This document shows, piece by piece, positions 202 through 34,600 of a DNA stretch of 62,411 bases. Under the pieces are notes generated by a model. The model ran no database searches, was not told where the DNA came from, and saw only the letters and a list, made by a program, of their open reading frames with translations. Each line of letters starts with the position of its first letter. Within the stretch, counting starts at the first letter, position 1. Origin of the DNA: a virus. Both the position numbers and the translations under genes were made by a program. Location of the stretch: the IMG/VR virus record IMGVR_UViG_3300024239_000003, positions 1 through 62,411 of that record, one strand, 5' to 3'.

Positions 202-230
202 ATCTTAGGTTAGCGTTAGAACTAACGCAA
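202..230 (-). promoter_or_regulatory. Candidate sigma70-type early promoter: TTGCGT, 17 nt, TAAGAT (minus strand)
   Basis: In the only AT-rich patch upstream of the minus-strand early operon. -35 is at 225-230 and -10 at 202-207, with an exact 17-nt spacer. Confidence 0.4.
213..228. promoter_or_regulatory. Operator-like palindrome GCGTTAG-AA-CTAACGC
   Basis: Perfect 7-2-7 inverted repeat lying in the spacer of the candidate early promoter. Confidence 0.5.
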
Positions 231-365
231 TCATAAGAAGTAGAAACCCGACGAACGGTAGTATTTAAATTTGCAAATCTGTATCGGGCTGGCAGATACT
301 TCGCTCCACCAGCTCACCTGCTGGACCAGTACAGCCTGGAAAGACGGGCGGACAGCCGGAGAGAC

Positions 366-424
366 GGCCCGATCACCTCCCACGGCTCCTGGCGGAAAAC
401 GGGAGGCTGCATCGGAAAGAGGGC
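366..424 (+). ncRNA. Hairpin module X1 (GGCCCGATCACCTCCC...GGGAGGCTGCATCGGAAAGAGGGC)
   Basis: Helix CCGAT(369-373)/ATCGG(411-415) stacked on CCTCCC(376-381)/GGGAGG(401-406). The flanks are conserved with X2. Confidence 0.4.
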
Positions 425-828
425 GGCCCGTGCAAAAAGCTGAGCAGGGCGCACGAGCAATGCGAACGGCCGGACGCAGTGCGCCATAGCTGTCAGGTTC
501 CCTCTTTCCAATGCAGAACATGGCGAAAGCCGGAAGTCTGAAAGCCAGCCACCCATGAGGTGCTTTCTGCGGTCCCCAATGCTGGATAGGGCCGCCCCCA
601 AGGGTCACGGGGAGAGTGTTGCGGAACGCCGGTCCAACAAGCAGACCTTAAACCCAGGCGTGACGGCTCGGAGAGACGAGCACTGAACAATGCAGCACCC
701 GCCGTTCGGGCATGAGCAGCAGCGCGGGAGCTTCACGAGTGGCACGACACGATCCCGTTGGTCTCATGCGGATGCGGGTGGAAACAGCGCCAGACCATGG
801 CGATACCCTGGCAAGCCGGTGGAAGTCC

Positions 829-884
829 GGCCCGATCACCTCGCCATCCCCTCGGGTAAGCTGGCGAGGCTGCATCGGAGAGGG
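829..884 (+). ncRNA. Hairpin module X2 (GGCCCGATCACCTCGCCA...TGGCGAGGCTGCATCGGAGAGGGC)
   Basis: Same flanks and outer helix as X1 (CCGAT 832-836/ATCGG 874-878). The inner helix is CCTCGCCA/TGGCGAGG, with a C:G to G:C swap relative to X1. It abuts tRNA-like element 1. Confidence 0.4.
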
Positions 885-985
885 CAATGGGTAGCTCAGC
901 GCGGTAGAGCAGCGAGCGCAAGCGGTCATGAACGCGAACGCTCATCCCCCCATGCAGGTCGCGGGTTCGACCCCCGCCTCATTGC
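885..985 (+). ncRNA. tRNA-like element 1 (34-nt anticodon-loop region instead of 7)
   Basis: Acceptor CAATGGG/CTCATTG, U8-A9, D arm GCTC-AGCGCGGTA-GAGC, variable loop AGGTC, T arm GCGGG-TTCGACC-CCCGC. Between GCGAG(912-916) and CATGC(951-955) lie 34 nt that can fold into an extended hairpin with loop GTCATGAA. Confidence 0.55.
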
Positions 986-1003
986 CTTCCCCGATGCAGA
1001 TGT

Positions 1004-1178
1004 ACCCCACTCGTCCAGTTGGTCAGGACACCATGAACCGGAGCGCCGAGGATCGCCGCCGACCTTGCACAGCGGCGGAAGGATGCGGAGCGAAGGGTAG
1101 TGTCAGGATGTTGCGTAAGTGCTGCGCAATTGAATGCCGCGAGCCGTGGAGACCGTGGTTCGATCCCACGGTGGGGCG
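1004..1178 (+). ncRNA. tRNA-like element 2 (109-nt insertion where the anticodon loop should be)
   Basis: Acceptor ACCCCAC/GTGGGGC, D arm GTCC-AGTTGGTCA-GGAC, anticodon stem CCATG(1031-35)/CGTGG(1145-49), T arm CGTGG-TTCGATC-CCACG. Bases 1036-1144 replace the 7-nt loop and contain hairpins plus AAGGATG and CAGGATG. Confidence 0.5.
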
Positions 1179-1383
1179 CCTAATCCCCGTCAACTCACTC
1201 CGGGGGCCGGCTCTGAGGCGAAGGAAGCGCCAAGGAGTAACGACGTGGAATTGCCCGCCATCGGCGCAAGGGCATGCTGGCGGGTAAGCCGCCCTTGAAA
1301 TTCTAGAGGTTGACGCCGGCAATCATGGCCAGAGGTCGAGGGCCGGCGCCTGACTTATCAGTGATCCAGCTCACAATGGGCGA

Positions 1384-8575: not shown

Positions 8576-8761
8576 GTGGCCCTGAAGATCGACCTGCGCC
8601 CAGGACAGAGCGTCCAGATCGGCGATGTCACCGTGAAGATGGTCAAGAAGTCAGGCCAGATCGCCAGTCTGGTGATCGAGGCGCCCCAGGATGTCCAGAT
8701 CAAGGGGCCACACCTGCGAGATGTTAGCCAGCAGGCACCTATGGCAGCCGCCATGCCATAG
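8576..8761 (+). CDS. CsrA-like small RNA-binding protein (61 aa)
   Basis: MALKIDLRPGQSVQIGDVTVKMVKKSGQIASLVIEAPQDVQIKG aligns by eye with CsrA ([47 protein letters not shown]) and has the same length. The HREEI-equivalent segment differs. Confidence 0.55.
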   Translation: MALKIDLRPGQSVQIGDVTVKMVKKSGQIASLVIEAPQDVQIKGPHLRDVSQQAPMAAAMP

Positions 8762-22660: not shown

Positions 22661-25600
22661 GTGGCAAAAGCACCGCTGTCGCCGCTCGAAAAGGTATTGT
22701 CGGAAGCCCCGTCCCAAGGTCTGCCGGACTTCCAATTCAACGCTACGGAGCGGCAGCCATCGGCTTCCAGCTCCGCCGCGCCGACCGAACTGATGCCGAT
22801 GTTCGAGCAGTCGGCGGTCAAGTACAACGTCCCGGTCAACGTCCTGCTCGCGCTCGGCGATCAGGAGTCGAGATTCAACCCGCGCGCGCTCGGCCAGCCT
22901 ACCAAGTGGGGCCGCGCCAAGGGGCTGATGCAGTATCTCGACAGCACCGCCGCGAACCTGGGGATCAACCCCTACGACCCGGCTCAGTCCATCGACGCCG
23001 CCGCGCGCCAGATACGCGAGCGTCTGGACAAGGGTTACTCCATGGAGGACGCGGTCAAGGAGCACTTCGCCGGCCCGGATCGCCGCCAGTGGGGGCCGAA
23101 GACCGCCCGCTACGGCGAGGAGGTCATGGAGAAGGTCGCAAAGTGGGGCGGCCAGTTCCAGCCGACCGGCGCCGCCGTTGCGTCCGGTGCGCCGGATCGC
23201 GCGGGCGCAGTTGCCGAACTCCAGAAGCAGCTCGATGCCGAGGAAGAAGGTCGGTACACGGCGCTTACGCCGGATCAGGTCGAGCGTTACCAGCGCCGCG
23301 CGGCTATGATGCAGGGCGATGCGCTCGCCGCCACCCAACCGTTTGTTCAGGTCAGCGCGCCGTCGCCGCTCACCATCGAGAACCAGCAGCGCCAGCAGCA
23401 ACAGCAGGCCGAGGCTCAGCCGTCGCCGCTCACCCTGGAGAACCAGAACCGTCTGGCCGCCGGCCTGCCGCCGAAGGACACCCGCGAGTATCAGGGTTTC
23501 CTCGAAGCCACGGGAGCATCGCTGGAAAACGTGCCCGAGCGCTTCCAGCAGTCGATTGCCGGCCTGATCCAGATGGCAGGCGAGGACCTGGGCCTGGAGC
23601 GCGAGCGCTTCATCGCTGACCGCGCGCGCCAGTACGGCATCACCCCCGGCGACATGAAGCTGCTGGCCTGGGCCGGCAACGAGAAGCTGATCGATCCGAA
23701 GACGCCGATCCCCGAGGCGCTGAAGACCGTCAAGCAGAACATCGCCCAGTCGCTCAACGAGCAGCAATTGAGGCAGCTCGACGCCGCCGGCATCATCAAC
23801 CCGAAGGAGATTTCGGCCTTCGCGCGTGACTGGCGCGAGCAGACAAAGAAGACCATGGTCGAGGTCCGCCCCGAGCCGGAGAGCATGGCCTACTACGGCA
23901 GCGCCGCCATTGGCTCGCTGGCCGAGATGGCGCCGATGCTGGCTGCTGCCGTCGTCACCCGTAATCCGCGCATCGCAACCGCCATCATGGGCGGTCAGGT
24001 GGGTGGTCAGGCCTACGCCACCGGCCGAGAGAGCGGCCTGAGCGAGGAGCAGGCGCAGACCTATGCCCTGCTGACTGCCGCCGCCGAGGCCGCGCCCGAG
24101 GCGCTTGTTCTCGGACGCCTGCTCAAGCCCGGCGCCGGCATCATGAAAAAGGCGCTCGAAGGCACCGTCTTGGAGGGCGCTCAGGAGGCGGTGACTGCCG
24201 CGCTCCAGGCTGGCATCGACAAGGGCTACATCAGCCCCGACATGACCTTGAAGGAAGCGCTGGTACAGGTGCGCGACAGCGCCATCATCGGTGCCATGAC
24301 CGGCGGCGCCTTGGGTGGCACGTTCGCCGGCGCCGAAAAGCTGACCAGCCGCAAGCCGGCGGAGCAGCGCGAGCGCATCGAGCCTACCGTCAGCGAGGAC
24401 GGCGCCACCCCGTCCGCCCAGCCGGCAGCGACCACTCCGGCCGCCCAGGCTGAAACGACCCCGGCCGCCGAGGCGCCGCAGGAAATCCAGGCCGCTCCGC
24501 CCGCGCCGCAGCCGGAGCCCCAGCCTGCACCGCAACCCGCTCCCCAGCCAGCACCGCAGCCGGAGCCGTCCGGCCAGCTCGGTCGCGCGCTCCAGAACGC
24601 CATGCCCGGCCGCGCCGAGGAGAGTGCCGCCGATGGTCAGCGCGTTGCCCTGATCGCCGAGGGCCTGGAGCCGATCACCGGCGCCGTGGTCTCCGAATCC
24701 CCGGACAGCCTGATGGTGCGCGGCGATGACGGCCAGAGCTACGAAATCACCCGCGACGAGATCGCCTCCGGCGCCGTCTCTGTGATGCCCGAGGAGCAGC
24801 TTGCCGCCCAGCAGGCCGCCGCGCCCGCTCAGGAACAGCAGGCCGCCCAGCCGGTCGAGGAGCCGGCTCCGGCGGAGCAGCAGGCCGAGCAGCAGGTCGA
24901 GCAACCGCAGTTGTTCGCCGAAACAGAACAGGCGGCTCCTATGTCCGAGCCCGCTCCCGAGGAGCGCAAGCCCGCGCGCACCTACGAGGAGATGGACGAG
25001 CCCGAGCTGCGCGAGCGCTTGAAGTACCTCGCCGGTCAGGCGCGCAACTCCGGCGGCTGGAACAAGACGCTCATGCAGGAGCGCCGGAAGATCGAGAAGG
25101 CCATCGAGGCGAAGAAGGCCGAGGCCGCCCCGGTCGAGCAGCCGGCCGTCGAGCCTGCGCCCGCCGTCGAACAGCCGACCGCCGAGCAGCCGGCCGCCGA
25201 GCAGGCGCCCGTCAAATGGTTCGGCAGTCGCGAGAAGGCCGATGCCTTCATCACCAAGAAGAAGCTGTCCGACAGCCACGAGGTTGTCGAAGCCGGCCGC
25301 TCGCGCTTCGAAATCCGCGAGAAGGCGCCCAAGGACGGTTGGGAAGACGTGCCCGGCTTCACCGACCGCAGCCGAAAGGAGGTCATGGACGCCGTCGTAG
25401 ACATGCGGAAGTTCAATCCAGGCATGGAGTTCCGCACCAAGGCAGTCGATGGAAAGCTGATCATCCAGAAGCGCAAGGCGCCTGCCGAGCAAGAGCAGGC
25501 CGCCCCGGCGCCTGCCGCGCAGCAGGAGCAGCCAAAGACCTCCGGCCACATCAACCGCGCCCGCAAGCTGATCGGCGCCGAGGTCGGCGATACCATCGTT

Positions 25601-28600
25601 CCGTCCGCCGATGTCGGCTATGCCTCCGGCGGAAAGCCCTACGTCATCGAGCGCATCGAGAAGAACGGCGAGGTCGTCGTCCGCAATGCGGAAACGAACT
25701 CCCGGACCAACCTGAGCCGGGCCGAGCTGGAGCGCGCCCGCCGCGCCGGAGTTACCTACGCCAAGCAGCAGGCCCTGGAAGAAGCCGGCGGCGACATGCG
25801 CGGCCAGGACATCAACAGCGAGTGGTCCGCGTTCGCGCCGGAGTCCGGCACCCTGAGCGTGCCGCGAGCCGAGATGCCGCAGATCAAGGCCGAGCATCGC
25901 GGCGCCATGGTCAACTTCCTGAACGCGCGCGGCATCGAGCACGAGGAGCAGACCGTCCCGGCCGACAGCCTGAAGCCGACGCAGGCGGAGTTCTCGCCCT
26001 CGAAGGTCGCCCAGGCGAAGGAGTTCACCGGCGGCGACCGCGCCATTCTCGTCTCCAGCGACGGCCATGTGCTGGACGGCCATCACCAGTGGCTCGCCAA
26101 GCGCGACGCCGGCGAGGACGTGCGCATCATCCGCCTGGACGCGCCGATCCGCGACCTGCTGCCGCTCGTGCATGAGTTCCCCAGCTCCACTCAGGCCGAA
26201 GGCGCATCTTCTGCTGCGCCGAGTGTTGCGAAAGCGGAAACTCCATCCGCAAAATCTGAACAGATCAATATCACCGTCGATGATGGCCTGATGCCGCGTG
26301 ATGACATGGCAAGAATCCAGAGCCGCGCCGGTGTTGAGGCATTCGCAATTGGCAGCGATCCAGAAACTGGCGCCGTTAAATTCAAGCGCGGCATGGAGTA
26401 CGGCGACTACAACATCAATCGTCTCGACACGAGCGGCGACTTCTACTCTCGTGAGGCATCCGCTAAGTTCAAGAACGATGGAACCTATCGCGTAGAGTTC
26501 GACGACGGCCGCGACCCGATTTCTGGAACATTCGACAAGGGCAACTACGTCGATAGCATCGTTGAGATATTGAAGCCGATTGCTGATGCTGTTCCGCGTG
26601 TAAACCGCTTCACTGGGAAACCAGTCGCAACCAAAGCACCTACCGCAGCGCCAAGCAAGGCGTCGCCAGCCGTCAGCGAGAACAAGGTCTTCACCGAGGA
26701 CGCCGCCGAGAAGGCCCGCGCCCTGCTGCGCTCGAAGCTGACCCAGCTGAACAGCGGTATTGACCCGGAGATCATGCAGGCCGGAATCACCCTGGCCGGC
26801 TACCATATCGAGAAGGGCGCGCGCACCTTCGCGGCCTATGCAAAGGCCATGGTCGGCGACCTGGGCGATGTCGTTCGCCCCTACCTGAAGTCGTGGTATA
26901 TGGGCGTGAAGTACGACCCGCGCGCCGCCGGCTTCGACGGAATGAGCACGGCGGCCGAGGTCGAAACTTTCGACGTGGACGCCCTGAGCGAGGAGACCCC
27001 GAATGAACCTGAACAGTTGGATCAGCCAAGCCAGGGAGCACTGGAAGGAGCACCTGCCGAACCGGTACAAGGAGCTGCAAGCCAAGAACCAGCTCGGGAA
27101 CGCCCTGCGCGGAGCAGCGGAGCGGACGCACGCCGAGATGAGCGAGCTGGAAGCGGCCGGGATGACGACGCACGAGGCCTGGGAAGCGACGAGGGAGCTG
27201 TACCTGTTCCCGCCGCAGGAGCAAGCCGAGACGGACGAGGCGGCGACCGGAGCGCTGTTCAACGAGGCGATGCAGGTAATCCAGCCCGATCCCGAGGACG
27301 GGGTGGTCGAGAGCCGCGCGGCGTAACACCGTCGCTGGGCGTCGTCGCCGAGCAGCGCCCTGCGAACTACACCATCACCGAGGCCGACGAGATCGGCCAG
27401 GGCGGCGCCAAGACCAAGTACCGGAACAACGTCGCCGCGATCCGGCTGCTGAAGCAGTTGGAGACCGATGGCCGCGCCGCTACCGCCTCGGAGCAGGTGG
27501 TCCTGGCGAAATACGTCGGCTGGGGCGGCATTCCGCAGGCCTTCGAGCGCAGCGACGGCAGCGCCAGCAAGGGCTGGGATAGCGAAGTCGCCGAGCTGAT
27601 GGGCCTGCTGACCGCCGAGGAATACCGCGCCGCCGCATCCTCCTCGAAGAACGCCCACTACACCGCGCCGGAGATCGTGCGCGCGATGTGGGGCGCCGTG
27701 GCCCGCCTGGGCTTCAACGGCGGCCGGGTGCTGGAGCCGTCTGTCGGCGTCGGCAACTTCTTCGGCCTGATGCCGCACGAGCTGCGCAAGGCTGCCGCGC
27801 TGAACGGCGTTGAGCTGGATCGCGTTACCAGCGGAATCGCCACCCAGCTCTACCCCGAGGCGAAGATCGCCCGCATGGGCTATCAGGACTACCTGATCCC
27901 TGACGGTCACTTCGATGTCGCCATCGGCAACCCGCCGTTCGGCCGCGAAAGCCTGTACGACGGGCGCCGCAAGGACCTGAGCGGCTTCAGTATCCACAAC
28001 TATTTCTTCGCCAAGAGCCTGGACGGCCTGCGCCCCGGCGGCGTGCTCGCCATGGTCGTGACCAATCGCATGATGGACGTGCCGGGCGACAAGGCGCGCC
28101 GCTACATGGCCGACCGCGCCGACTTCCTGGGCGCGATCCGCCTGCCGAACGACGCCTTCATGGCGAACGCCGGCACGTCCGTGACCACGGACATCATCTT
28201 CATGCGCCGCCGCGCCGAGGGCGAGCAGCCCGCCGGCGAGAGCTGGATGGAGGTGCGCGACTACACCGACAAGGACGGCAACACCGTCCCGCTGAACGAG
28301 TATTTCCACCGCCACCCGGAAATGATGCTCGGCGACTTCGGCGCCTACGGCTCCATGTACCGCGACGGCGAGCCTGCCCTGGTCGCCCGCGAGGGCCAGG
28401 ACACCCAGGCCGAGCTGACGCGCGCCATCGGCCGCCTGCCCGAGGGCGTCATGACCCAGTCGGCGCCGGTGAAGCCGGAGACCGCCGAGACCGTGCGCGC
28501 CGAGAACGTGCGCGTCGGCTCCATGTTCCTCGACGGCGACACCGTGAAGGTGCGCGGCGACGACGTGCTGGGCGAGAACACCGCCGAGGCTGTGACCTTC

Positions 28601-31600
28601 CCGAACGAGAAGGCCCGCGAGCGCGTCGTCGGCATGATCGGTATCCGCGACGTGCTGGCCCGCCTGCGCGGCCTGCAACTGGACCCGAGCGCCACCGACA
28701 AGCGGATCGAGGTCGCCCGCAAGGAGCTGAACGCAGCCTATGATGCCTTCGTCAAGGCGAACGGCCCGATCAACCTCGATGCCAACAAGCGCCTGTTCCG
28801 CGACGATCCGACGTGGCCGCAGCTCTCCGCCCTGGAGGACAACTTCGACAAGGGGCTGTCCGCCGCCATGGCGAAGAAGACCGGCGAGGAGCCGCGCAAG
28901 CCGAGCGCGCAGAAGGCCGCGATCTTCAGCAAGCGCACCCAGCAGCCGTATCAGGCGCCGACCAGCGCCGCGTCGGCGAAGGACGCCCTGGTCGCCAGTC
29001 TCGCCGAGACCGGCCGCGTAGACCTCGACCTGATGAGCGAGCTGTACGGCAAATCGCCCGACACCATCGTCAAGGAGCTGGGCGACCTCGTCTTCCGCGA
29101 CCCGGTGAAGGGCTACGTCACCCGCGACGAGTACCTGAGCGGTAACGTGAAGGCGAAGCTGGCCCAGGCCCGCGAGGCGGCCAAGAGCGATCCGGCATTC
29201 GCCGCGAACGTCGATGCCCTGGAGGCTGTGCAGCCTGCCGACATCGAGGCCGTGGACATCAACGTCAAGCCCGGCGCGCCGTGGGTTCCGCAGGAGACCA
29301 TGGCCGAGTTCGCCAACCACATCGCCGAGGGCAGCCGTGCCCGCGCGATCTACAACCCGGCGACCGCGAAGTGGTCGTTCCTGAACGTCGATGCCACCAC
29401 CGCAGCCGACCAGCGCTTCGCCACCGGCCGCGTCACCCTGACCGGCATCCTCGAAGCCGCGGCGAACCAGAAGACCCTACAGGTCTACGACTCGCACCCG
29501 GACGGCAGCCGCACCTTGAACGAGGGCGAAACCCAGCTCGCTAACGACAAGGTGAACGCGGTCAAGGAGGCTTGGGATCGTTGGGTTTGGGCGGATGATG
29601 CCCGGCGCGAGCGCCTGGGCCGCATCTACAACGACACCTACAACACCAACGTCGCGCGCGACTACGACGGCTCGCACCTGACATTCCCCGGCAAGGTCGG
29701 CGACGACATCATTTCCCTGCGCCCTCACCAGGGGAACGCCGTGTGGCGGATCGTGCAGGCCGATACGACCCTGCTGGATCACGTCGTCGGCGCCGGCAAG
29801 ACCTTCACCATGGTCGCCGGCGCGATGGAGCTGCGCCGCATGGGCCTCGCCAAGAAGCCCATGTTCGTGGTGCCGAACCACCTCGTCAGCCAGTGGGCCG
29901 CCGACTTCACCAAGCTCTACCCAGGCGCCAACGTGCTCGCGGCGAACAAGAAGGACTTCGAGAAGGAGAACCGCAAGCGCCTGTTCGCCCGGATCGCCAC
30001 CGGCGACTGGGACGCGGTGATCGTCGCGCACTCCAGTTTCGGCAAGGTCGAGGTGGAGCCGCACGAGCAGGCCGCATTCATTCAGGAGCAGGTCGATGAC
30101 CTCGACGCCTCTATCGAGCTGATGCGTCTGGTAGACGGCAAGAACAGCCGGAACGTCAAGGAGACGCAGAAGCGCCGCGACGCCTTGCAGGAGAAGCTGA
30201 AGAAGCTGATCGACGCCGACAACAAGGACGACAGCCTGTACTGGGGCGAGCTGGGCGTGGACGCCCTGTTCGTGGACGAGGCGCACGAGTTCAAGAACCT
30301 CGCGTTCTCCACCTCCATGAACCGCGTCGCAGGCCTGGGCGCGCAGACCGGCAGCCAGAAGGCGGCCGACCTGTTCCTGAAGGTCCGGCAGGTACTGAAG
30401 GCTACCGGCGGCCGCAACGTCGTGTTCGCTACCGGCACGCCGATCAGCAACACCATGGCCGAGATGTACACCATGCAGCGGTATCTCGACTATGTGAACC
30501 TGAAGGGCCAGGGCCTGAGCCACTTCGACGCCTGGGCGCGCATGTTCGGCGAGGTCGTGACCGACTGGGAGCTGTCGCCGTCCGGCAAGTACAAGATGAA
30601 CAGCCGGTTCGCCAAGTTCGTGAACATGCCGGAGCTGATGCAGCGCTACGGCTCCTTCGCCGACGTGGTGAACCGTGCGGACATCAACCGCATGCTCGCC
30701 GCCCAGGGCAAGAAGCTGCCGGTGCCGAAGGTGCGCGGCGGCAAGCCGGAGAACGTGGTCGTTCCGCGCAGCCAGGACCAAGCCAACTACATCGGCGAGC
30801 CGATCAAGGACGCGGACGGCAACGACACTGACGACTACCCGCGCGGCACGCTGGTATGGCGCTCCGAGAACCTGCCGAAGAAGGCGGAGAAGGGCTCGGA
30901 CAACATGCTGAAGATCATGGGCGACGCCCGGAAGGCCGCCCTGGATATGCGCCTGATCGACCCGAGCTACCCGGACTACGCCGGCAGCAAGGTCAACGAG
31001 GCCGCCGGCCGCATGAAGGAGCTGTACGACCGCTGGCACGAGGATCGCGGCACGCAACTGGTCTTCATCGACCTGTCCACGCCGAAGAACGCCCGTTCCG
31101 CCGAGGCCGAGCGCCTGCGCGACCTCGCCCGCCGGGCCGATGATGGCGACGAGGACGCGGCCGCCGAGCTGGATAAGGTCAGCCCCGACGAGCTGATGGC
31201 CCTGGACGGCGACTTCTCGGTCTACGACGACCTGAAGCAGAAGCTGATCGCCAAGGGCATCCCTGCCGACGAGATCGCCTTCATCCACGATGCCAAGACC
31301 GACCTCCAGAAGGAGGAGCTTTTCGGCAAGGTCCGCTCCGGCCGCGTGCGCTTCCTGTTCGGCTCCACCGCGAAGATGGGCGCCGGCACCAACGTGCAGG
31401 ACCGGCTGGTCGGCCTGCACCACATGGACGCCCCGTGGCGGCCTTCCGATCTGGAGCAGCGCGAGGGGCGGATCATCCGCCAGGGCAACAAGCTGTACGA
31501 GCGTGATCCCGAGGGCTTCGAGGTGGCGATCTTCCGCTACGCCACGAAGCAGACCCTGGACAGCCGCATGTGGCAGACCATCGAGGGCAAGGCCAACTTC

Positions 31601-34600
31601 ATCGAGCAGGTGCGCAAGGGCGCGTCCGGCACCCGCGAGATCGAGGACGTTGCCGGCGAGGCCGCGAACGCCGCCGAGATGAAGGCGGCCGCCAGCGGCA
31701 ACCCGCTGATCCTCGAAGAGATGAGCCTACGCCAGAAGATCAGGAAGCTCGAAAATGAGCGGATGAACCACGAGCGCGAGCAGTTCCGCCTGCGCGACAG
31801 CGTCCGCTCGGCGAAGCGCAGCATCGAGCGCGCTGACCGCCTGCTAGCCGAGCTGCGCGCCGACGCCAAGCGCGAGCTGCCCAAGGAGTTCGCCCTGACC
31901 ATCAACGGCGTGGAGTTCGACAAGCGCAAGGACGCTGGCGAGGCGATCCTGGCCCAGGCCGCCAAGATGGAGGCGAACGGAACCGAGGAGGCCGAGATCG
32001 GCCGCTACGGCGACTTCACCATTCGCCTGGAGCGCATCACCAAGGAGCGCTACGAGGCGCAGGTCGTGGGCGATGGCACCTATACCGCCGCCTTTGAACT
32101 CGACACCGATCCGCTCGGCCTGTCCATGCGCGTGACCAACACCGTCAAGGACCTGGGCGGAGCCATCGAGCAGGTCGAGCAGCGCAAGGCCCGTGCCCAG
32201 GCCGACATCCCGAAACTGGAGGAGCAGGCCGCCGACTGGTCGAAGCGCGACGAGCTGTCCCAGGCCAAGGGGCGCCACAACGACGTGCTCACCCAGTTGA
32301 AGCCGAAGAAGAAGGAGACGCCGCCGGCGCAGCAGCAGCCGGAGATCAAGGCGTCCATTGCAAAGCAGACGAGCACGCCCGAGTTCAAGCGCTGGTTCGG
32401 CGACAGCAAGGTGGTGGACGAGGACGGCCAGCCGCTGGTGGTCTATCACGGCTCCATCGTCCGCGACAGCCCGCGCACGCCGGGCATGGGCGACATCCAA
32501 GCGTTCGACCGCCTGTACACCACGCGATTCCGCAAGCCCTCCGTGGACACCATGGGGAGCTGGTTCAGCACCAACCCTGGCGAAGGTGGCGCACAGAAGT
32601 ATTCTGGCGCCCGCGAAGGCTCGGTGATCTATCCTGTCTACCTGTCCATCCAGAACCCGCAGGAAACCACGTTCCAGCTCCTGCTGCGCCGCGCCCGCCT
32701 GCTGGCCAATGGCGTCGATGATGGTCGCATGGTCGGTGAAGCGGAGGTTAACGCCTACCGCAAGTGGCTGAAGGAAATGGGCAAGGACGGCATCAAGATC
32801 GTCCATGATGAGTACGCCGAGAACGGTTCCACCGAGTTCAAGGACCAAACCGCGTGGGTTGTACTCGAACCCGAGCAGATCAAGAGCGCCACCGGAAACC
32901 GTGGCACCTTCGATCCGAACAGTGCAGACATTCGTTACTCCATCGCCGATCAGCTCCAGCGTGCGCTGAACGACGGGTCGCGTGTCGATGCCGTGGTGGA
33001 TGGCGAGCGTTTCAGCGTGCAGCCGGACGGCATGTACGAGCTGATCCGCTCCGACGCTATCGACCTGAAGTCTCCGGCGGAGATCGCCAGCCTCCCGGTG
33101 GCGGACGCCCGCGCCCGCGTCTTCGACGCTCTGCTGGCGAAGCGCGGCATCTCTATGCAGCACCAGAAGCTCGGCGCCATCAACTTCAACCGGGCCGGCA
33201 TCACCAAGAGCCGGGCGAACAGCAACGACCCGGCCAAGGTGAAGACCATCCCGCTGCTGGATCGCATCGTGGACGGCGCGCCTTACCTGGGCCGCCGCGA
33301 GGCTGACGGCACCGTCTATCACTACCTGGGCCGCCGCATCCGCGTGGACGGTGAGCCGATCACCACCATGATCACGCTGCGCGAGACCCCGGACGGTCGG
33401 ATCACCTACTACAACCACACCATGCTCAACGACGTTCGCACGATCATGGTGGAGCCGGACGATCCGTCCGTGAATGATCGGTACTACCGCCGCCCGGACC
33501 TGCGCTACGAGCTGATGAGCCTGTCGGCGCCGGCGAGCCCCGAGCGCATCCGTGCCGTGCTCACCGGCGGCCCGCTGGGCGCGCAGTTGCAGAAGCTGAT
33601 GGATGCCGGCCGGCTGGTCGTGCATGCCGACGCCAGCACCGTGCCGGGCGCGAGCGTTCCGGGCATGCAGGCCAAGACCTACGACGACGGAAGCGTCCAC
33701 ATGGTCGCCGCCAACGTCACGCCGCAGAACGCCCTGGCGGTCCTGCTGCACGAGATGTTCCACTCGGGCGCCCGTCCGCTGGTCGGGACGCGCCGCTGGG
33801 CGCAGCTCATGGTCCGCCTGGAGCAACTGTACAAGCAGTTCGAGAAGTCGAACGGTCGCGCGCGCCAGTTCTTCGACGCCGCCCGCAACCGCGTCGAGAC
33901 CGCCAAGCGCTACCTGCCGATGAGCGATGTGCTGGCGGTCGAGGAGTTCGGCGCCTACGCCATCGAGGAGTACGAGAGTGCGCCGGCAGCCGTCCGCCGC
34001 TGGGTGGACGACGTGATCGGCGCCATCAAGGACTTCCTGTTCCGCACCTTCGGCGTGCAGCTCGGGCAGGTCACGCCGGCGCAACTGCGCGCCATGGCCC
34101 TGGCTGCGATCCGCAGCGAGGCCCAGGCGCCGGGCGCCTCCTCGATGGACGGGGAGCGGTACTCCATCGCCAGCCTGCCGGAGAATGCCCCGAACGATAC
34201 CGAGGTGGAAGGCTGGTTCAGCCGGAAGCTGACCGACGCCATGGCCGGGCCGCGCAGCGGCGGCCGGTGGAGCATCCTCTCCCTGGCGCCCATGGACCGG
34301 ATGGTCGAGGAGCTGGCCGGCGGGAACCAACCGGCGCAGGAGTACCTGAACCTGAAGCGCGACATGGACGCCTACCGCTCGAAGAAGCATCAGCAGTTCG
34401 ACACCATCGCCCAGCGTTGGCTGAAGCTGATCGCCTTCGACCGGAAGGGCGCGCAGGAGATGGCCGACATCATGCACGAGGCCACCCTGGCGCAGACCGA
34501 CCCGGCCGAGCCGTTCAAGACCTCGATCACCAAGGCCGACGAGCAGGTGATGCAGTACCGTCCGAACAGCGAGGCCGCCGAGGAGGCCTTCGCCAAGAAG

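What the first reader, a model, noticed from the sequence alone, without database searches (positions are those of the whole stretch)
231..1340. 1.1-kb ORF-free, structure-rich, GGA-rich locus between the early promoter and the packaging genes
This is the only long stretch of an otherwise tightly packed genome with no believable ORF. Every tracked ORF here is Arg/Pro/Ser/Gly-rich and overlaps others in different frames. It contains two tRNA-shaped elements, a duplicated hairpin module, many GNRA-type hairpins (GGC-GAAA-GCC at 523-532, GCG-GAA-CGC at 620-628) and a repeated CGGAGAGACG (357-366 and 668-677). I count 29 GGA triplets between 300 and 1300, roughly 1.5 times a crude expectation for GC-rich sequence. 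They include near-consensus CsrA/RsmA sites AAGGATG (1079-1085) and CAGGATG (1104-1110), 25 nt apart. Because the phage also encodes a CsrA-like protein (8576..8761), one hypothesis is a phage-borne Csr/Rsm-type protein plus sponge RNA. Alternatively it could be a large ornate RNA of the kind that sits beside tRNAs in phages. I cannot assign it to any RNA family from memory.
Basis: partly seen in the sequence, partly recalled or inferred. Interest (0 to 1): 0.82.

Follow-up and report, generated by a model that had tools for sequence, protein, structure and literature searches.

The report
Phage array of tRNA-like RNA cassettes
The gene-free kilobase is most likely a phage locus that makes a string of folded, tRNA-shaped non-coding RNAs, two of them mounted on a stem-and-hairpin scaffold that recurs with dozens of different inserts in many Pseudomonas phages and matched no RNA family in Rfam 15 or in the literature searched.

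Summary
Window 231-1340 has no credible gene and holds two tRNA-shaped elements and a duplicated hairpin module. The GGA excess is not significant (29 observed against 23.3±3.6 in shuffles).

The duplicated module is the key. It is a scaffold: hairpin P0, CCCGAU, hairpin P1, then CUGCAUCGGAG pairing with ...CCCCGAUGCAG to form a 20-22 bp stem (P2).
- About 68 distinct copies were found in IMG/VR contigs and named Pseudomonas phages.
- Covariation is strong: 13 of 22 P2 pairs show changes on both sides.
- P2 carries 42 unrelated insert types, many of them cloverleaf-shaped.
- Near-identical phages differ by whole cassettes.
- Rfam 15 and my literature searches returned nothing.

Best reading, with function inferred: a polycistronic array of stable structured RNAs, cut out by host RNases and acting in trans, possibly in phage-host conflict.

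The locus-wide CsrA-sponge idea is not supported.
- Inserts across the family are depleted in AGGA.
- The CsrA-like gene is a lineage marker of Bcep22-like phages.
- A relative carries that gene but has no such locus.

One weak residue remains: a cluster of three AGGAU motifs, unique in the window, inside the second tRNA-like RNA.

The parts
271..300 (+). Candidate sigma-70-type promoter: TTGCAA (271-276), 18-nt spacer, GATACT (295-300)
   Evidence: Read from the sequence; the consensus scan did not flag it. The homologous RNA genes of phages Jeremy and Dolphis are preceded by TTGCAT-N17/18-TACCAT. Inferred, not shown.
309..339 (+). Leader with two small hairpins (CCAGC..GCTGG 309-324; CCAG..CTGG 326-339)
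   Evidence: MFE fold of 300-352, z -1.8. Identical in Itty13, so there is no comparative test.
355..368 (+). Module 1, hairpin P0 (GCCG-GAGAGA-CGGC)
   Evidence: The same hairpin (GCCGGAAAGACGGC) precedes CCCGAU in many IMG/VR copies.
368..375 (+). Module 1, 5' junction motif CCCGAUCA
   Evidence: Repeated at 831-838. Conserved in the family alignment, though the search pattern required part of it.
376..406 (+). Module 1, hairpin P1 (CCUCCC...GGGAGG), directly abutting P2
   Evidence: 42 distinct P1 hairpins: basal CCU/AGG is conserved and pairs 4-8 covary (pair 4: GC 31, CG 7, UG 3, AU 1).
407..516 (+). Module 1, closing stem P2 (407-423 with 500-516) carrying a 'type 3' insert (424-499)
   Evidence: 17-bp stem with one C-A mismatch. 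The insert has relatives on other scaffolds in L056, L083, L095, L104 and L108; the consensus fold has 10 pairs changed on both sides.
520..665 (+). Unassigned spacer with small hairpins (e.g. GGCGAAAGCC 522-531)
   Evidence: No homologue outside Itty13. Fold no better than shuffles, z -0.04. Status open.
666..681 (+). P0-like hairpin GCUCG-GAGAGA-CGAGC
   Evidence: Aligns with Itty13's P0 hairpin GCCGGAGAGACGGC, with stem changes on both sides.
696..796 (+). 5' domain: nested helices CACCCGC/GCGGGUG (696-702 with 774-780) and GCAUGAG/CUCAUGC (710-716 with 763-769), conserved loop GGCACGACACGAUCC (741-755), then box AAACAGCGCCAGACC (782-796)
   Evidence: Shared with P. putida phages Jeremy and Dolphis (71-80% identity). 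Dolphis has GCAUUAG/CUAAUGC, a change on both sides that keeps the pair. Only three sequences.
815..869 (+). Module 2: P0 (815-831), CCCGAUCA (831-838), P1 (839-869, CCUCGCC...GGCGAGG)
870..999 (+). Module 2, closing stem P2 (870-891 with 978-999; 22 positions, one A-C mismatch, two G-U) carrying tRNA-like RNA 1
   Evidence: Family-wide, P2 is 90.3% paired, 13 of 22 pairs change on both sides, and 0 of 500 shuffles reach the covariation score.
885..986 (+). tRNA-like RNA 1: acceptor 885-891/978-984, D arm 894-910, extended 'anticodon' arm 914-943 ending in loop GUCAUGAA, T arm 961-977
   Evidence: ARAGORN with introns allowed. Consensus cloverleaf of 6 homologues has 14 pairs changed on both sides. 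Homologous copies pass Rfam tRNA (34.9 bits in Jeremy, 44.4 bits in L045); the window copy does not.
1004..1180 (+). tRNA-like RNA 2: acceptor 1004-1010/1171-1177, D arm 1013-1029, T arm 1154-1170, and a 102-nt insert (1036-1137) in place of the anticodon loop
   Evidence: ARAGORN with introns allowed; the residual loop CGCGAGC lacks U33. No homologue outside Itty13.
1049..1109 (+). Three AGGAU motifs (starting at 1049, 1080, 1105) inside the insert of tRNA-like RNA 2: candidate Rsm/Csr-type binding sites
   Evidence: The only cluster of three within 70 nt on either strand of the window.
1183..1345 (+). Tail of the locus: hairpins (e.g. 1217-1231 with an AAGGAAG loop; 1253-1285). End of the transcript not defined
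   Evidence: Fold z -0.75. Identical in Itty13. No terminator-like site found.

Best explanation
Window about 300-1340, + strand, is a stand-alone non-coding RNA locus: a tandem array of structured RNA modules, carried as an accessory insertion by this Itty13-like (Bcep22-type) Pseudomonas phage.

Shown:
- Two modules (355-516 and 815-999) are built on a scaffold that recurs in Pseudomonas phages of several kinds. The scaffold is hairpin P0, CCCGAU(CA), hairpin P1 (CCU...AGG), then CUGCAUCGGAG, which pairs 70-210 nt downstream with ...CCCCGAUGCAG to form a 20-22 bp, almost purely Watson-Crick stem (P2).
- P2 presents a hypervariable insert. In the window the inserts are a 'type 3' RNA and a tRNA-shaped RNA whose anticodon arm is replaced by a long arm.
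- A second tRNA-shaped RNA with a 102-nt insert follows directly.
- Inserts and even single hairpins are swapped between near-identical phages.

Inferred:
- The array is transcribed from its own promoter as one precursor.
- Host RNases cut it: RNase III in the long stems, RNase P and 3' processing enzymes at the tRNA-like bodies. This releases compact, nuclease-resistant RNAs.
- After a cut in P2, the upstream CCGAU can pair with AUCGG. That lengthens P1 into a hairpin capping the 3' end of the upstream fragment, which would explain why CCCGAU is duplicated on both sides.
- The released RNAs act in trans on host factors that recognise tRNA-like shapes, or through their variable arms.
- The diversity and rapid turnover of inserts suggest a role in phage-host or phage-phage conflict.
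For: Non-coding:
- No Pfam or PHROG hit for any internal ORF.
- No consistently open frame across 68 elements.
- AGGA (Shine-Dalgarno-like) is depleted in the inserts.

Family:
- The motif scan returned 120+ IMG/VR loci.
- 68 of the distinct elements have at least 18 of 22 P2 positions paired.
- 36 GenBank records, 35 named Pseudomonas phages, carry it, besides Itty13, Jeremy, Dolphis, Shamal and Haboob.

Structure:
- P2 is 90.3% paired. Changes on both sides occur at 13 pairs and in 125 cells, against 37±5 in shuffles. Versions slid by 1-3 columns collapse to 30-41% paired.
- P1 covaries.
- The tRNA-like cloverleaf has 14 pairs changed on both sides.
- The type 3 insert has 10.

Strand:
- The tRNA model and ARAGORN both hit the + strand.
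- The element is co-oriented with cI in all 25 loci where cI is within reach.
- Jeremy and Dolphis have a terminator on this strand right after the array.
- Outside two special positions, G-U outnumbers A-C 20 to 5 in P2.

Modularity:
- 42 insert clusters among 68 elements, not tied to the flanking genes.
- The window and Itty13 are 98.5% identical in the flanks but differ by module and P1 swaps in 665-990.
- Jeremy has a 286-nt block of two cassettes that Dolphis lacks, between CCGATCAC and AT(A/T)(C/G)CAGCAAGAC.

Link to tRNA processing:
- Cassettes sit among tRNA genes in L050, and 90 nt from a tRNA-Met in L061.

Accessory nature:
- The relative Skulduggery has no such gap.
Against: - There are no expression or end-mapping data, so promoter, processing and stability are all inferred.
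- The whole region folds no better than shuffles on either strand.
- Long 13/14-bp helices are common by chance in this GC-rich genome, at 4-8 per kb.
- P2 is about 96% Watson-Crick in its variable half, and its commonest mismatch (A-C at position 10, 34 of 51) would be a G-U on the other strand. A DNA-level inverted repeat is therefore not excluded by pairing alone.
- Members were collected with an exact motif, so conservation of that motif is partly circular.
- No protein partner co-occurs.
- No target complementarity was found in the phage's own genome.
- About 40% of the locus (520-665 and 1183-1345) has no comparative support at all.
Confidence: 0.42

Rival explanations
1. Cis-acting punctuation. 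The scaffold is an intercistronic RNA processing and stability element: an RNase III stem plus an RNase P-type cloverleaf, in the manner of tRNA punctuation. Its job is to cut and stabilise neighbouring transcripts. The inserts are largely neutral filler, with only their overall shape selected.
For: - In temperate phages the element sits between genes of the early-left operon, starting right after a stop codon and ending 18-40 nt before the next ribosome-binding site.
- Insert sequence is extremely diverse while shape and stems are kept.
- The variable part corresponds to the anticodon arm; from general knowledge, RNase P does not read that arm.
Against: - In the window, Jeremy and Dolphis the array is its own unit with no adjacent mRNA to process.
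- Individual insert families are conserved in sequence across unrelated scaffolds, including loop sequences. That is not expected of filler.
Confidence: 0.2
2. DNA-level element. The conserved inverted repeat CTGCATCGG...CCGATGCAG, with its variable centre, is a folded-DNA recombination or cassette-insertion site (attC-like), or a small non-autonomous mobile element, rather than an RNA.
For: - Whole cassettes are gained or lost between near-identical phages at repeated CCGAT...CAG junctions.
- Stems are nearly perfect Watson-Crick.
- The architecture of conserved outer boxes, tolerated mismatches and a variable terminal structure resembles integron attC sites (general knowledge).
Against: - Inserts keep RNA-specific features that DNA hairpins do not need: D and T arms with the GGUUCGA loop passing the Rfam tRNA model, loop-loop complementarity with compensatory variants, and G-U over A-C asymmetry.
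- Orientation is fixed relative to transcription.
- No recombinase or transposase co-occurs.
- The sequence does not match the integron R-box GTTRRRY.
Confidence: 0.1
3. Csr/Rsm sponge. The locus, or at least the insert of tRNA-like RNA 2, titrates host RsmA/RsmN or the phage CsrA-like protein through GGA motifs.
For: - Three AGGAU motifs lie 25-31 nt apart at 1049-1109, unique in the window.
- A genuine CsrA-family ORF is present.
- A tRNA-shaped body would make a stable carrier (general knowledge of tRNA scaffolds).
Against: - Locus-wide GGA is not above shuffles.
- No Csr/Rsm family matched at E<=10.
- Family inserts are depleted in AGGA.
- The CsrA-like gene is a lineage marker found without the locus.
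- The scaffold occurs in phages not found among the records with that gene.
- The three motifs are identical in the only homologue, so conservation cannot be tested.
- The cluster statistic is post hoc.
Confidence: 0.07
4. Self-assembling ornate RNA. The modules multimerise through loop-loop contacts into a larger particle, as reported for ROOL and GOLLD.
For: - The long arm of tRNA-like RNA 1 ends in a 6-nt palindrome: UCAUGA in the window and the Shamal type, UCCGGA in Jeremy. The centre changes but self-complementarity is kept.
- Loop-loop pairs GCUGA:UCAGC, with compensatory GUCGA:UCGAC variants, occur in another insert type.
- The element is near tRNA genes in L050.
Against: - There are only two palindrome variants.
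- No ROOL or GOLLD match.
- The loop-loop pairs can equally form within one molecule.
Confidence: 0.05
5. Real tRNA genes interrupted by introns that are removed to give decoding tRNAs.
Against: - The inserts are too short for group I introns (general knowledge).
- The residual loop of RNA 2, CGCGAGC, lacks U33, and a Ser tRNA needs a long variable arm that is absent.
- In homologues of RNA 1 the putative loop changes length (CCCCCC, CCA, CGA, AACA), so no anticodon is conserved.
- No insert in 69 elements is called a tRNA in default mode.
Confidence: 0.04
6. Protein-coding after all, for example the 125-aa ORF on the minus strand that Itty13 annotates.
For: Itty13 record CDS QRE00608.1 corresponds to window 231-608 minus.
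Against: - No family hit.
- The ORF overlaps a module whose RNA pairing covaries in other phages, where no frame is conserved.
Confidence: 0.02

Closest known systems
Stable small RNAs co-encoded with phage tRNA clusters (T4 species 1 and 2 / RNA C and D; from my own knowledge)
   Same: Phage-encoded structured non-coding RNAs of unknown function, lying with tRNA genes and matured by the tRNA-processing machinery. In L050 the cassettes sit between tRNA genes.
   Different: No sequence relation was tested. The T4 RNAs are not known to share a swappable scaffold or to be hypervariable. In the window itself there is no true tRNA.
Bacterial Y RNA YrlA (Rfam RF02553)
   Same: A long stem formed by the 5' and 3' ends carries a tRNA-like module, and such RNAs occur in phages (PMC4201824 abstract; the rest from general knowledge).
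   Different: The Rfam match is 15.7 bits against a cut-off of 69. It arises from the T arm of RNA 1 followed by the D arm of RNA 2, an artefact of two tandem tRNA-like units. The order of arms here is canonical, not permuted. No co-occurring protein family was seen within 4 kb of the elements; Ro/Rsr was not searched for specifically.
P1/P7 c4 and P4 CI immunity RNAs, and isrK (processed from a leader by RNase P; general knowledge)
   Same: Small phage RNAs cut out of a longer early transcript through tRNA-like features. They lie in the immunity or early region and carry variable specificity loops.
   Different: Only an 18-bit isrK match in Jeremy, against a cut-off of 50. No complementary target sites were found. 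The scaffold motifs are unrelated.
RNase III processing stems of rRNA operons and of T7 early mRNA (general knowledge)
   Same: A stem of about 20 bp, nearly perfect Watson-Crick, formed by sequences flanking a structured RNA. Cleavage could leave a protective 3' hairpin on the upstream fragment.
   Different: Cleavage was not tested. Here the stem's outer 10 bp are conserved in sequence, and the enclosed RNA is different in each copy.
Integron attC sites (general knowledge)
   Same: Conserved outer inverted boxes with tolerated mismatches, a variable terminal structure, and cassette-wise gain and loss.
   Different: attC acts as folded DNA with an integrase. Here the inserts show RNA-specific features, no integrase is linked, and the R-box consensus is absent.
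Csr/Rsm sponge RNAs (CsrB, RsmX/Y/Z)
   Same: Three AGGAU motifs at sponge-like spacing in one insert.
   Different: No Csr/Rsm family matched at E<=10. There are too few motifs, the family as a whole avoids AGGA, and there is no co-distribution with the CsrA-like gene.

Membership tests
tRNA (Rfam RF00005 / ARAGORN) | Cloverleaf with acceptor stem, D arm and T arm carrying the conserved loop sequences | tested here: met
   ARAGORN with introns allowed draws both cloverleaves. 14 pairs change on both sides in RNA 1 homologues.
tRNA (Rfam RF00005 / ARAGORN) | Score above the curated threshold / detection in default mode | tested here: not met
   Window: no tRNA call and no RF00005 match at E<=10. 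Homologous copies do pass: 34.9 bits in Jeremy and 44.4 bits in L045.
tRNA (Rfam RF00005 / ARAGORN) | Seven-nucleotide anticodon loop with U33 and a conserved anticodon | tested here: not met
   The loop is replaced by 20-37 nt (RNA 1) or about 108 nt (RNA 2). The residual loop lacks U33 and is not conserved in homologues.
Csr/Rsm sponge RNA (CsrB, RsmX/Y/Z) | Match to the family models | tested here: not met
   None at gathering score or at E<=10.
Csr/Rsm sponge RNA (CsrB, RsmX/Y/Z) | Many GGA / ANGGA motifs, above composition | tested here: not met
   Locus: 29 against 23.3±3.6. Family inserts are depleted. Locally, three AGGAU at 1049-1109 leave the single insert inconclusive.
Csr/Rsm sponge RNA (CsrB, RsmX/Y/Z) | Binding to CsrA/RsmA | not testable with these tools
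   Needs EMSA or CLIP.
Y RNA-like YrlA (RF02553) | Model score; permuted tRNA-like module on a Ro-binding stem; rsr gene nearby | tested here: not met
   15.7 bits against 69, and the match spans two separate tRNA-like units. No shared neighbouring protein family; a TROVE/Rsr domain was not searched for.
Twister-sister ribozyme (RF02681) | Model score and conserved internal-loop nucleotides | tested here: not met
   21.1 bits against 34. The 3' internal loop is missing. The alignment borrows one strand of P1, a hairpin supported by covariation. Dolphis keeps the 5' part with no partner strand.
GOLLD / ROOL large phage RNAs | Match to the family models | tested here: not met
   No match at gathering score in the window or in 12 related loci, nor at E<=10 in 1-2000.
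Retron / RT-associated ncRNA | Reverse transcriptase gene directly downstream | tested here: not met
   None in the window near the locus. RT or RT-15 RNA lies 1.6-4.5 kb away in a few prophages only.
Integron attC | R-box RYYYAAC/GTTRRRY and a linked integrase | tested here: not met
   The outer boxes are CTGCATCGG/CCGATGCAG. No recombinase is shared among neighbours.
New scaffold family defined here (P0-CCCGAU-P1-CUGCAUCGGAG...CCCCGAUGCAG) | All four scaffold parts in order, with P2 of at least 17 bp enclosing an insert | tested here: met
   Window 355-516 and 815-999.

The most novel reading that the evidence does not exclude
The scaffold is a natural RNA cassette platform. It is a conserved stem-and-hairpin socket that lets Pseudomonas phages acquire, swap and express an open-ended repertoire of compact tRNA-shaped RNAs (decoys, sponges or guides). 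It would be a hypervariable RNA armoury used in phage-host or phage-phage conflict, and the RNA counterpart of an integron or a defence island.
Probability: 0.3. Interest if true: 0.9.

Novelty: new variant of a known kind. Interest (0 to 1): 0.72.

Why it matters
- Phage-encoded structured RNAs are few, and most have no known function.
- Here one conserved scaffold occurs in temperate lambdoid-type phages, a Bcep22-type phage, roughly 95-kb P. putida phages and a tRNA-rich phage contig. It carries at least 42 unrelated inserts and turns over between near-identical genomes.
- If the inserts are functional, this is a large, unannotated layer of phage biology in an important pathogen's phages, including phages considered for therapy. 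In public records the scaffold lies under no annotated feature or under hypothetical-protein calls.
- It would also be a ready-made natural design for stable RNA display.
- Even if the element only processes transcripts, it is a new, well-defined family for RNA databases, and it would remove false gene calls.

Tried and rejected
- Twister-sister ribozyme (21 bits): rejected because it conflicts with the covarying P1 hairpin and with Dolphis.
- YrlA (15.7 bits): an artefact of two tandem tRNA-like units.
- Whole-region folding energy: not informative on either strand. A scan for long-range helices is swamped by chance hits in GC-rich DNA.
- Antisense targets of the locus in the phage's own genome: only chance-level 12-14-mers.
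- Scan for the 5' domain (GGCACGACACGAYCC) in IMG/VR: 69 loci, all chance.
- Scan for tRNA-like RNA 2: no match.
- Shared neighbouring protein: none beyond the cI repressor and ordinary early genes.
- Linkage between insert type and flanking genes: none.
- True tRNAs as inserts: none in 69 elements.
- Literature: five searches, including the literal motif sequences, found nothing relevant. The Pas sRNA preprint was read and is unrelated.
Full report
**What the window is**

The window is a close relative of Pseudomonas phage Itty13 (Ittyvirus). The flanks of the finding are 98.5% identical to Itty13. The phage belongs to the Bcep22-like group of roughly 60-kb phages. Its 61-aa CsrA-like gene is shared with 51 records of Ralstonia, Burkholderia, Klebsiella, Erwinia, Serratia and Pseudomonas phages. 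It also carries a 4779-aa polyvalent protein.

The finding lies between a leftward gene that starts at about 150 and a leftward ORF at 1384-1683. The small terminase gene follows at 1773.

**Checking the observation**

- The ORFs inside 231-1340 overlap each other in several frames and have no Pfam or PHROG match.
- ARAGORN in default mode finds no tRNA in the whole window, and Rfam finds nothing at gathering score.
- With introns allowed, ARAGORN draws two cloverleaves. One is at 885-986 with 27 extra nucleotides; the other is at 1004-1180 with 102 extra nucleotides in the anticodon loop.
- The duplicated module and the repeated CGGAGAGACG are real.
- The GGA count of 29 is right. However, dinucleotide shuffles give 23.3±3.6, and 8% of them reach 29.
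- Folding energy does not set the region apart from shuffles on either strand. Only the two scaffold modules reach z of about -2.4 and -2.8.

**The scaffold**

The duplicated module is one half of a larger unit. CUGCAUCGG (407-415 and 870-878) is the exact reverse complement of the CCGAUGCAG that follows the tRNA-like element, and a near-complement of CCAAUGCAG at 508-516. The pairing continues inward. It gives a 17-bp stem (407-423 with 500-516) and a 22-position stem (870-891 with 978-999).

Upstream of each stem lie a small hairpin (P0), the motif CCCGAUCA, and a second hairpin (P1) that ends in AGG directly before CUGCAU.

An exact-pattern scan for CCGAY-N12-42-AGGCTGYATCGGA returned more than 120 IMG/VR loci. 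Of the distinct elements, 68 have a downstream partner giving at least 18 of 22 paired positions. A BLAST search with one such element found 36 GenBank records, 35 of them named Pseudomonas phages, including phi1, phi2, MD8, JBD88b, phiPSA1 and Medea1. Part of the window's module also matches Jeremy, Dolphis, Shamal and Haboob.

**Is the structure selected?**

On 31 diverse copies with the inserts cut out:
- P2 is 90.3% paired.
- 13 of 22 pairs show changes on both sides.
- 125 cells carry such changes, against 37±5 in shuffles, and no shuffle of 500 reaches the covariation score.
- Sliding the 3' strand by 1-3 columns drops pairing to 30-41%.

The outer ten pairs are conserved in sequence, but this is partly circular because the search required them. 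They still covary where they can: CUGUAU pairs with AUACAG in three cases.

P1 was examined in 42 distinct versions. It keeps a CCU/AGG base and covaries above it, with loops of 4-20 nt.

No reading frame is conserved, and lengths are not multiples of three.

**The inserts**

The 68 elements carry 42 unrelated insert clusters, 29-168 nt long. Insert type is independent of the genes on either side. Three recurrent types stand out.

1. *A tRNA-like RNA (window module 2).*
   - It has an acceptor stem continuous with P2, a D arm and a T arm.
   - An extended arm replaces the anticodon arm.
   - Six homologues give 14 pairs changed on both sides.
   - The copies in Jeremy and L045 pass the Rfam tRNA threshold at 34.9 and 44.4 bits. 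The window copy does not.
2. *A cloverleaf whose first and third hairpin loops are complementary.* The pairing is GCUGA:UCAGC, and two variants are compensatory, GUCGA with UCGAC. It acts like a Watson-Crick stand-in for the tRNA elbow.
3. *The 'type 3' RNA of window module 1.* Relatives sit on different stems in five IMG/VR loci, with 10 pairs changed on both sides.

None of 69 elements contains a tRNA by default ARAGORN.

**Turnover**

The window and Itty13 are near-identical left of about 665 and right of about 990. In between, they carry different sets of modules. The shared tRNA-like insert sits behind different P1 hairpins in the two phages.

Jeremy and Dolphis are closely related P. putida phages. 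Both have the 5' domain that the window has at 696-796. After CCGATCAC, Jeremy carries a 286-nt block of two cassettes. In Dolphis the sequence runs straight on to ATTGCAGCAAGAC and a terminator.

The cassettes are therefore gained and lost as units at the repeated junction motifs.

**Context**

- In temperate phages the element lies 0.7-3.7 kb downstream of cI on the same strand, in all 25 loci where cI is in reach. It sits between early-left genes such as ParB-like, LuxR-type and recombination genes.
- In Jeremy and Dolphis it forms a separate RNA gene. That gene has a promoter-like TTGCAT-N17/18-TACCAT and a clear intrinsic terminator.
- In L050 three cassettes lie inside a tRNA gene cluster. 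In L061 one lies 90 nt after a tRNA-Met.
- No protein family is shared between these contexts and the window.
- The Bcep22-type relative Skulduggery has no non-coding gap before terS. The locus is therefore an accessory acquisition.

**How it most likely works**

Shown: the locus is non-coding. It encodes RNA structure on the + strand, built from a widespread modular scaffold with hypervariable, often tRNA-shaped inserts.

Inferred, from three observations:
- *The stems.* They are 20-22 bp and almost purely Watson-Crick. In bacteria and phages such stems are typical RNase III processing stems (rRNA operons, T7 early RNA; general knowledge).
- *The tRNA-like bodies and tRNA-cluster neighbours.* These point to RNase P and the 3' processing enzymes.
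- *The duplicated CCCGAU.* It has a simple rationale. Before the 3' strand is made, or after a cut in P2, CCGAU can pair with AUCGG and lengthen P1. That would cap the upstream fragment.

I therefore read the locus as a polycistronic precursor cut into compact stable RNAs that act in trans. Diversity and rapid turnover fit a conflict-related role, but nothing here shows what the RNAs bind.

The main rival is that the scaffold merely punctuates and stabilises transcripts and the inserts are shape-constrained filler. A DNA-level recombination site is a weaker rival, because the inserts keep RNA-specific features.

**The CsrA idea**

The CsrA-like ORF is genuine. However, it is a lineage marker that occurs without the locus. 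The scaffold occurs in phages that are absent from the listed records carrying that gene. Family inserts avoid AGGA, 12 observed against 27±4.7 expected.

What remains is local. Three AGGAU motifs lie within 61 nt inside the insert of tRNA-like RNA 2, and this cluster is unique in the window. It is worth an EMSA but does not explain the locus.

**Novelty**

Rfam 15 has no match at gathering score in the window or in 12 related loci, other than tRNA for one insert and the unrelated RT-15 RNA nearby. Five literature searches, including the literal motifs, found nothing.

I file it as a new variant of a known kind: phage structured or tRNA-like non-coding RNA. A more novel reading, an RNA cassette platform, is not excluded.

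Noticed in passing
window 22661-37000 (+): A single 4779-aa ORF, 23% of the genome. It is a polyvalent protein with SLT transglycosylase, Eco57I-type methylase, ResIII/SNF2 helicase, ART-PolyVal ADP-ribosyltransferase, LPD3 and LPD39 domains.
   Followed up: partly
window 8576-8761 (+): The CsrA-like ORF sits in the structural gene block. It is only 28% identical to P. aeruginosa RsmA over 47 residues. It is a lineage marker of Bcep22-like phages of many genera.
   Followed up: partly
window 213-228: Perfect palindrome GCGTTAG-AA-CTAACGC between the leftward gene and the RNA locus. It looks like an operator for a dimeric regulator of the divergent promoters.
   Followed up: no
window 923-930; L002 4235-4240: The long arm of tRNA-like RNA 1 ends in a loop holding a 6-nt palindrome: UCAUGA in the window and the Shamal type, UCCGGA in Jeremy. 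The centre changes while self-complementarity is kept, so loop-loop dimers are possible.
   Followed up: partly
L002 4297-4445; L101, L023, L098 and other IMG/VR loci: A second recurrent module: a cloverleaf with hairpins UGCGCA-GGCUGA-UGCGCA and GCCGG-AGAUCAGCA-CCGGC. Their loops are complementary, and there are two compensatory variants. It occurs either inside P2 or as the next cassette, closed by GCAGAUG/CAUCUGC, which overlaps the preceding junction motif.
   Followed up: partly
L045 3007-3183; L082 3093-3158; L041 2258-2448; L248 5024-6111: RT-15 RNA (RF03018), and in Haboob a reverse transcriptase gene, lie 1.6-4.5 kb downstream of the element on the same strand. This prophage region seems to be a hotspot for defence-type cargo.
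   Followed up: no
L050 560-2200 (- strand): The order is tRNA-Met, tRNA-Asn, three scaffold cassettes (one with UUGCAUCGG instead of CUGCAUCGG), an HU-like gene, tRNA-Trp, a near-threshold abiF RNA match (33.5 bits against 37) and tRNA-Ser.
   Followed up: partly
68 inserts from IMG/VR and phage loci: AGGA and A.GGA are about two-fold depleted in the inserts relative to dinucleotide shuffles (12 against 27, and 10 against 24). This may be avoidance of ribosome-binding-site-like sequences.
   Followed up: no
window 231-608 (-); L001 12032-12409: Itty13 annotates a 125-aa hypothetical protein (QRE00608.1) on the strand opposite module 1. It has no family match and is probably a false gene call. 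Several other phage records also place hypothetical proteins over the scaffold.
   Followed up: partly
window 1232-1298 (+): AAGGAG, a 7-nt spacer and GUG would open a 17-codon ORF (MELPAIGARACWRVSRP) in the tail of the locus. It could be chance, and the stretch is identical in Itty13.
   Followed up: no
P2 position 10 (window 416 with 507, and 879 with 990): An A opposite C is the majority state at this position of the closing stem (34 of 51 distinct stems; the window's module 1 has A-U). It would be a G-U on the other strand, and remains unexplained.
   Followed up: partly
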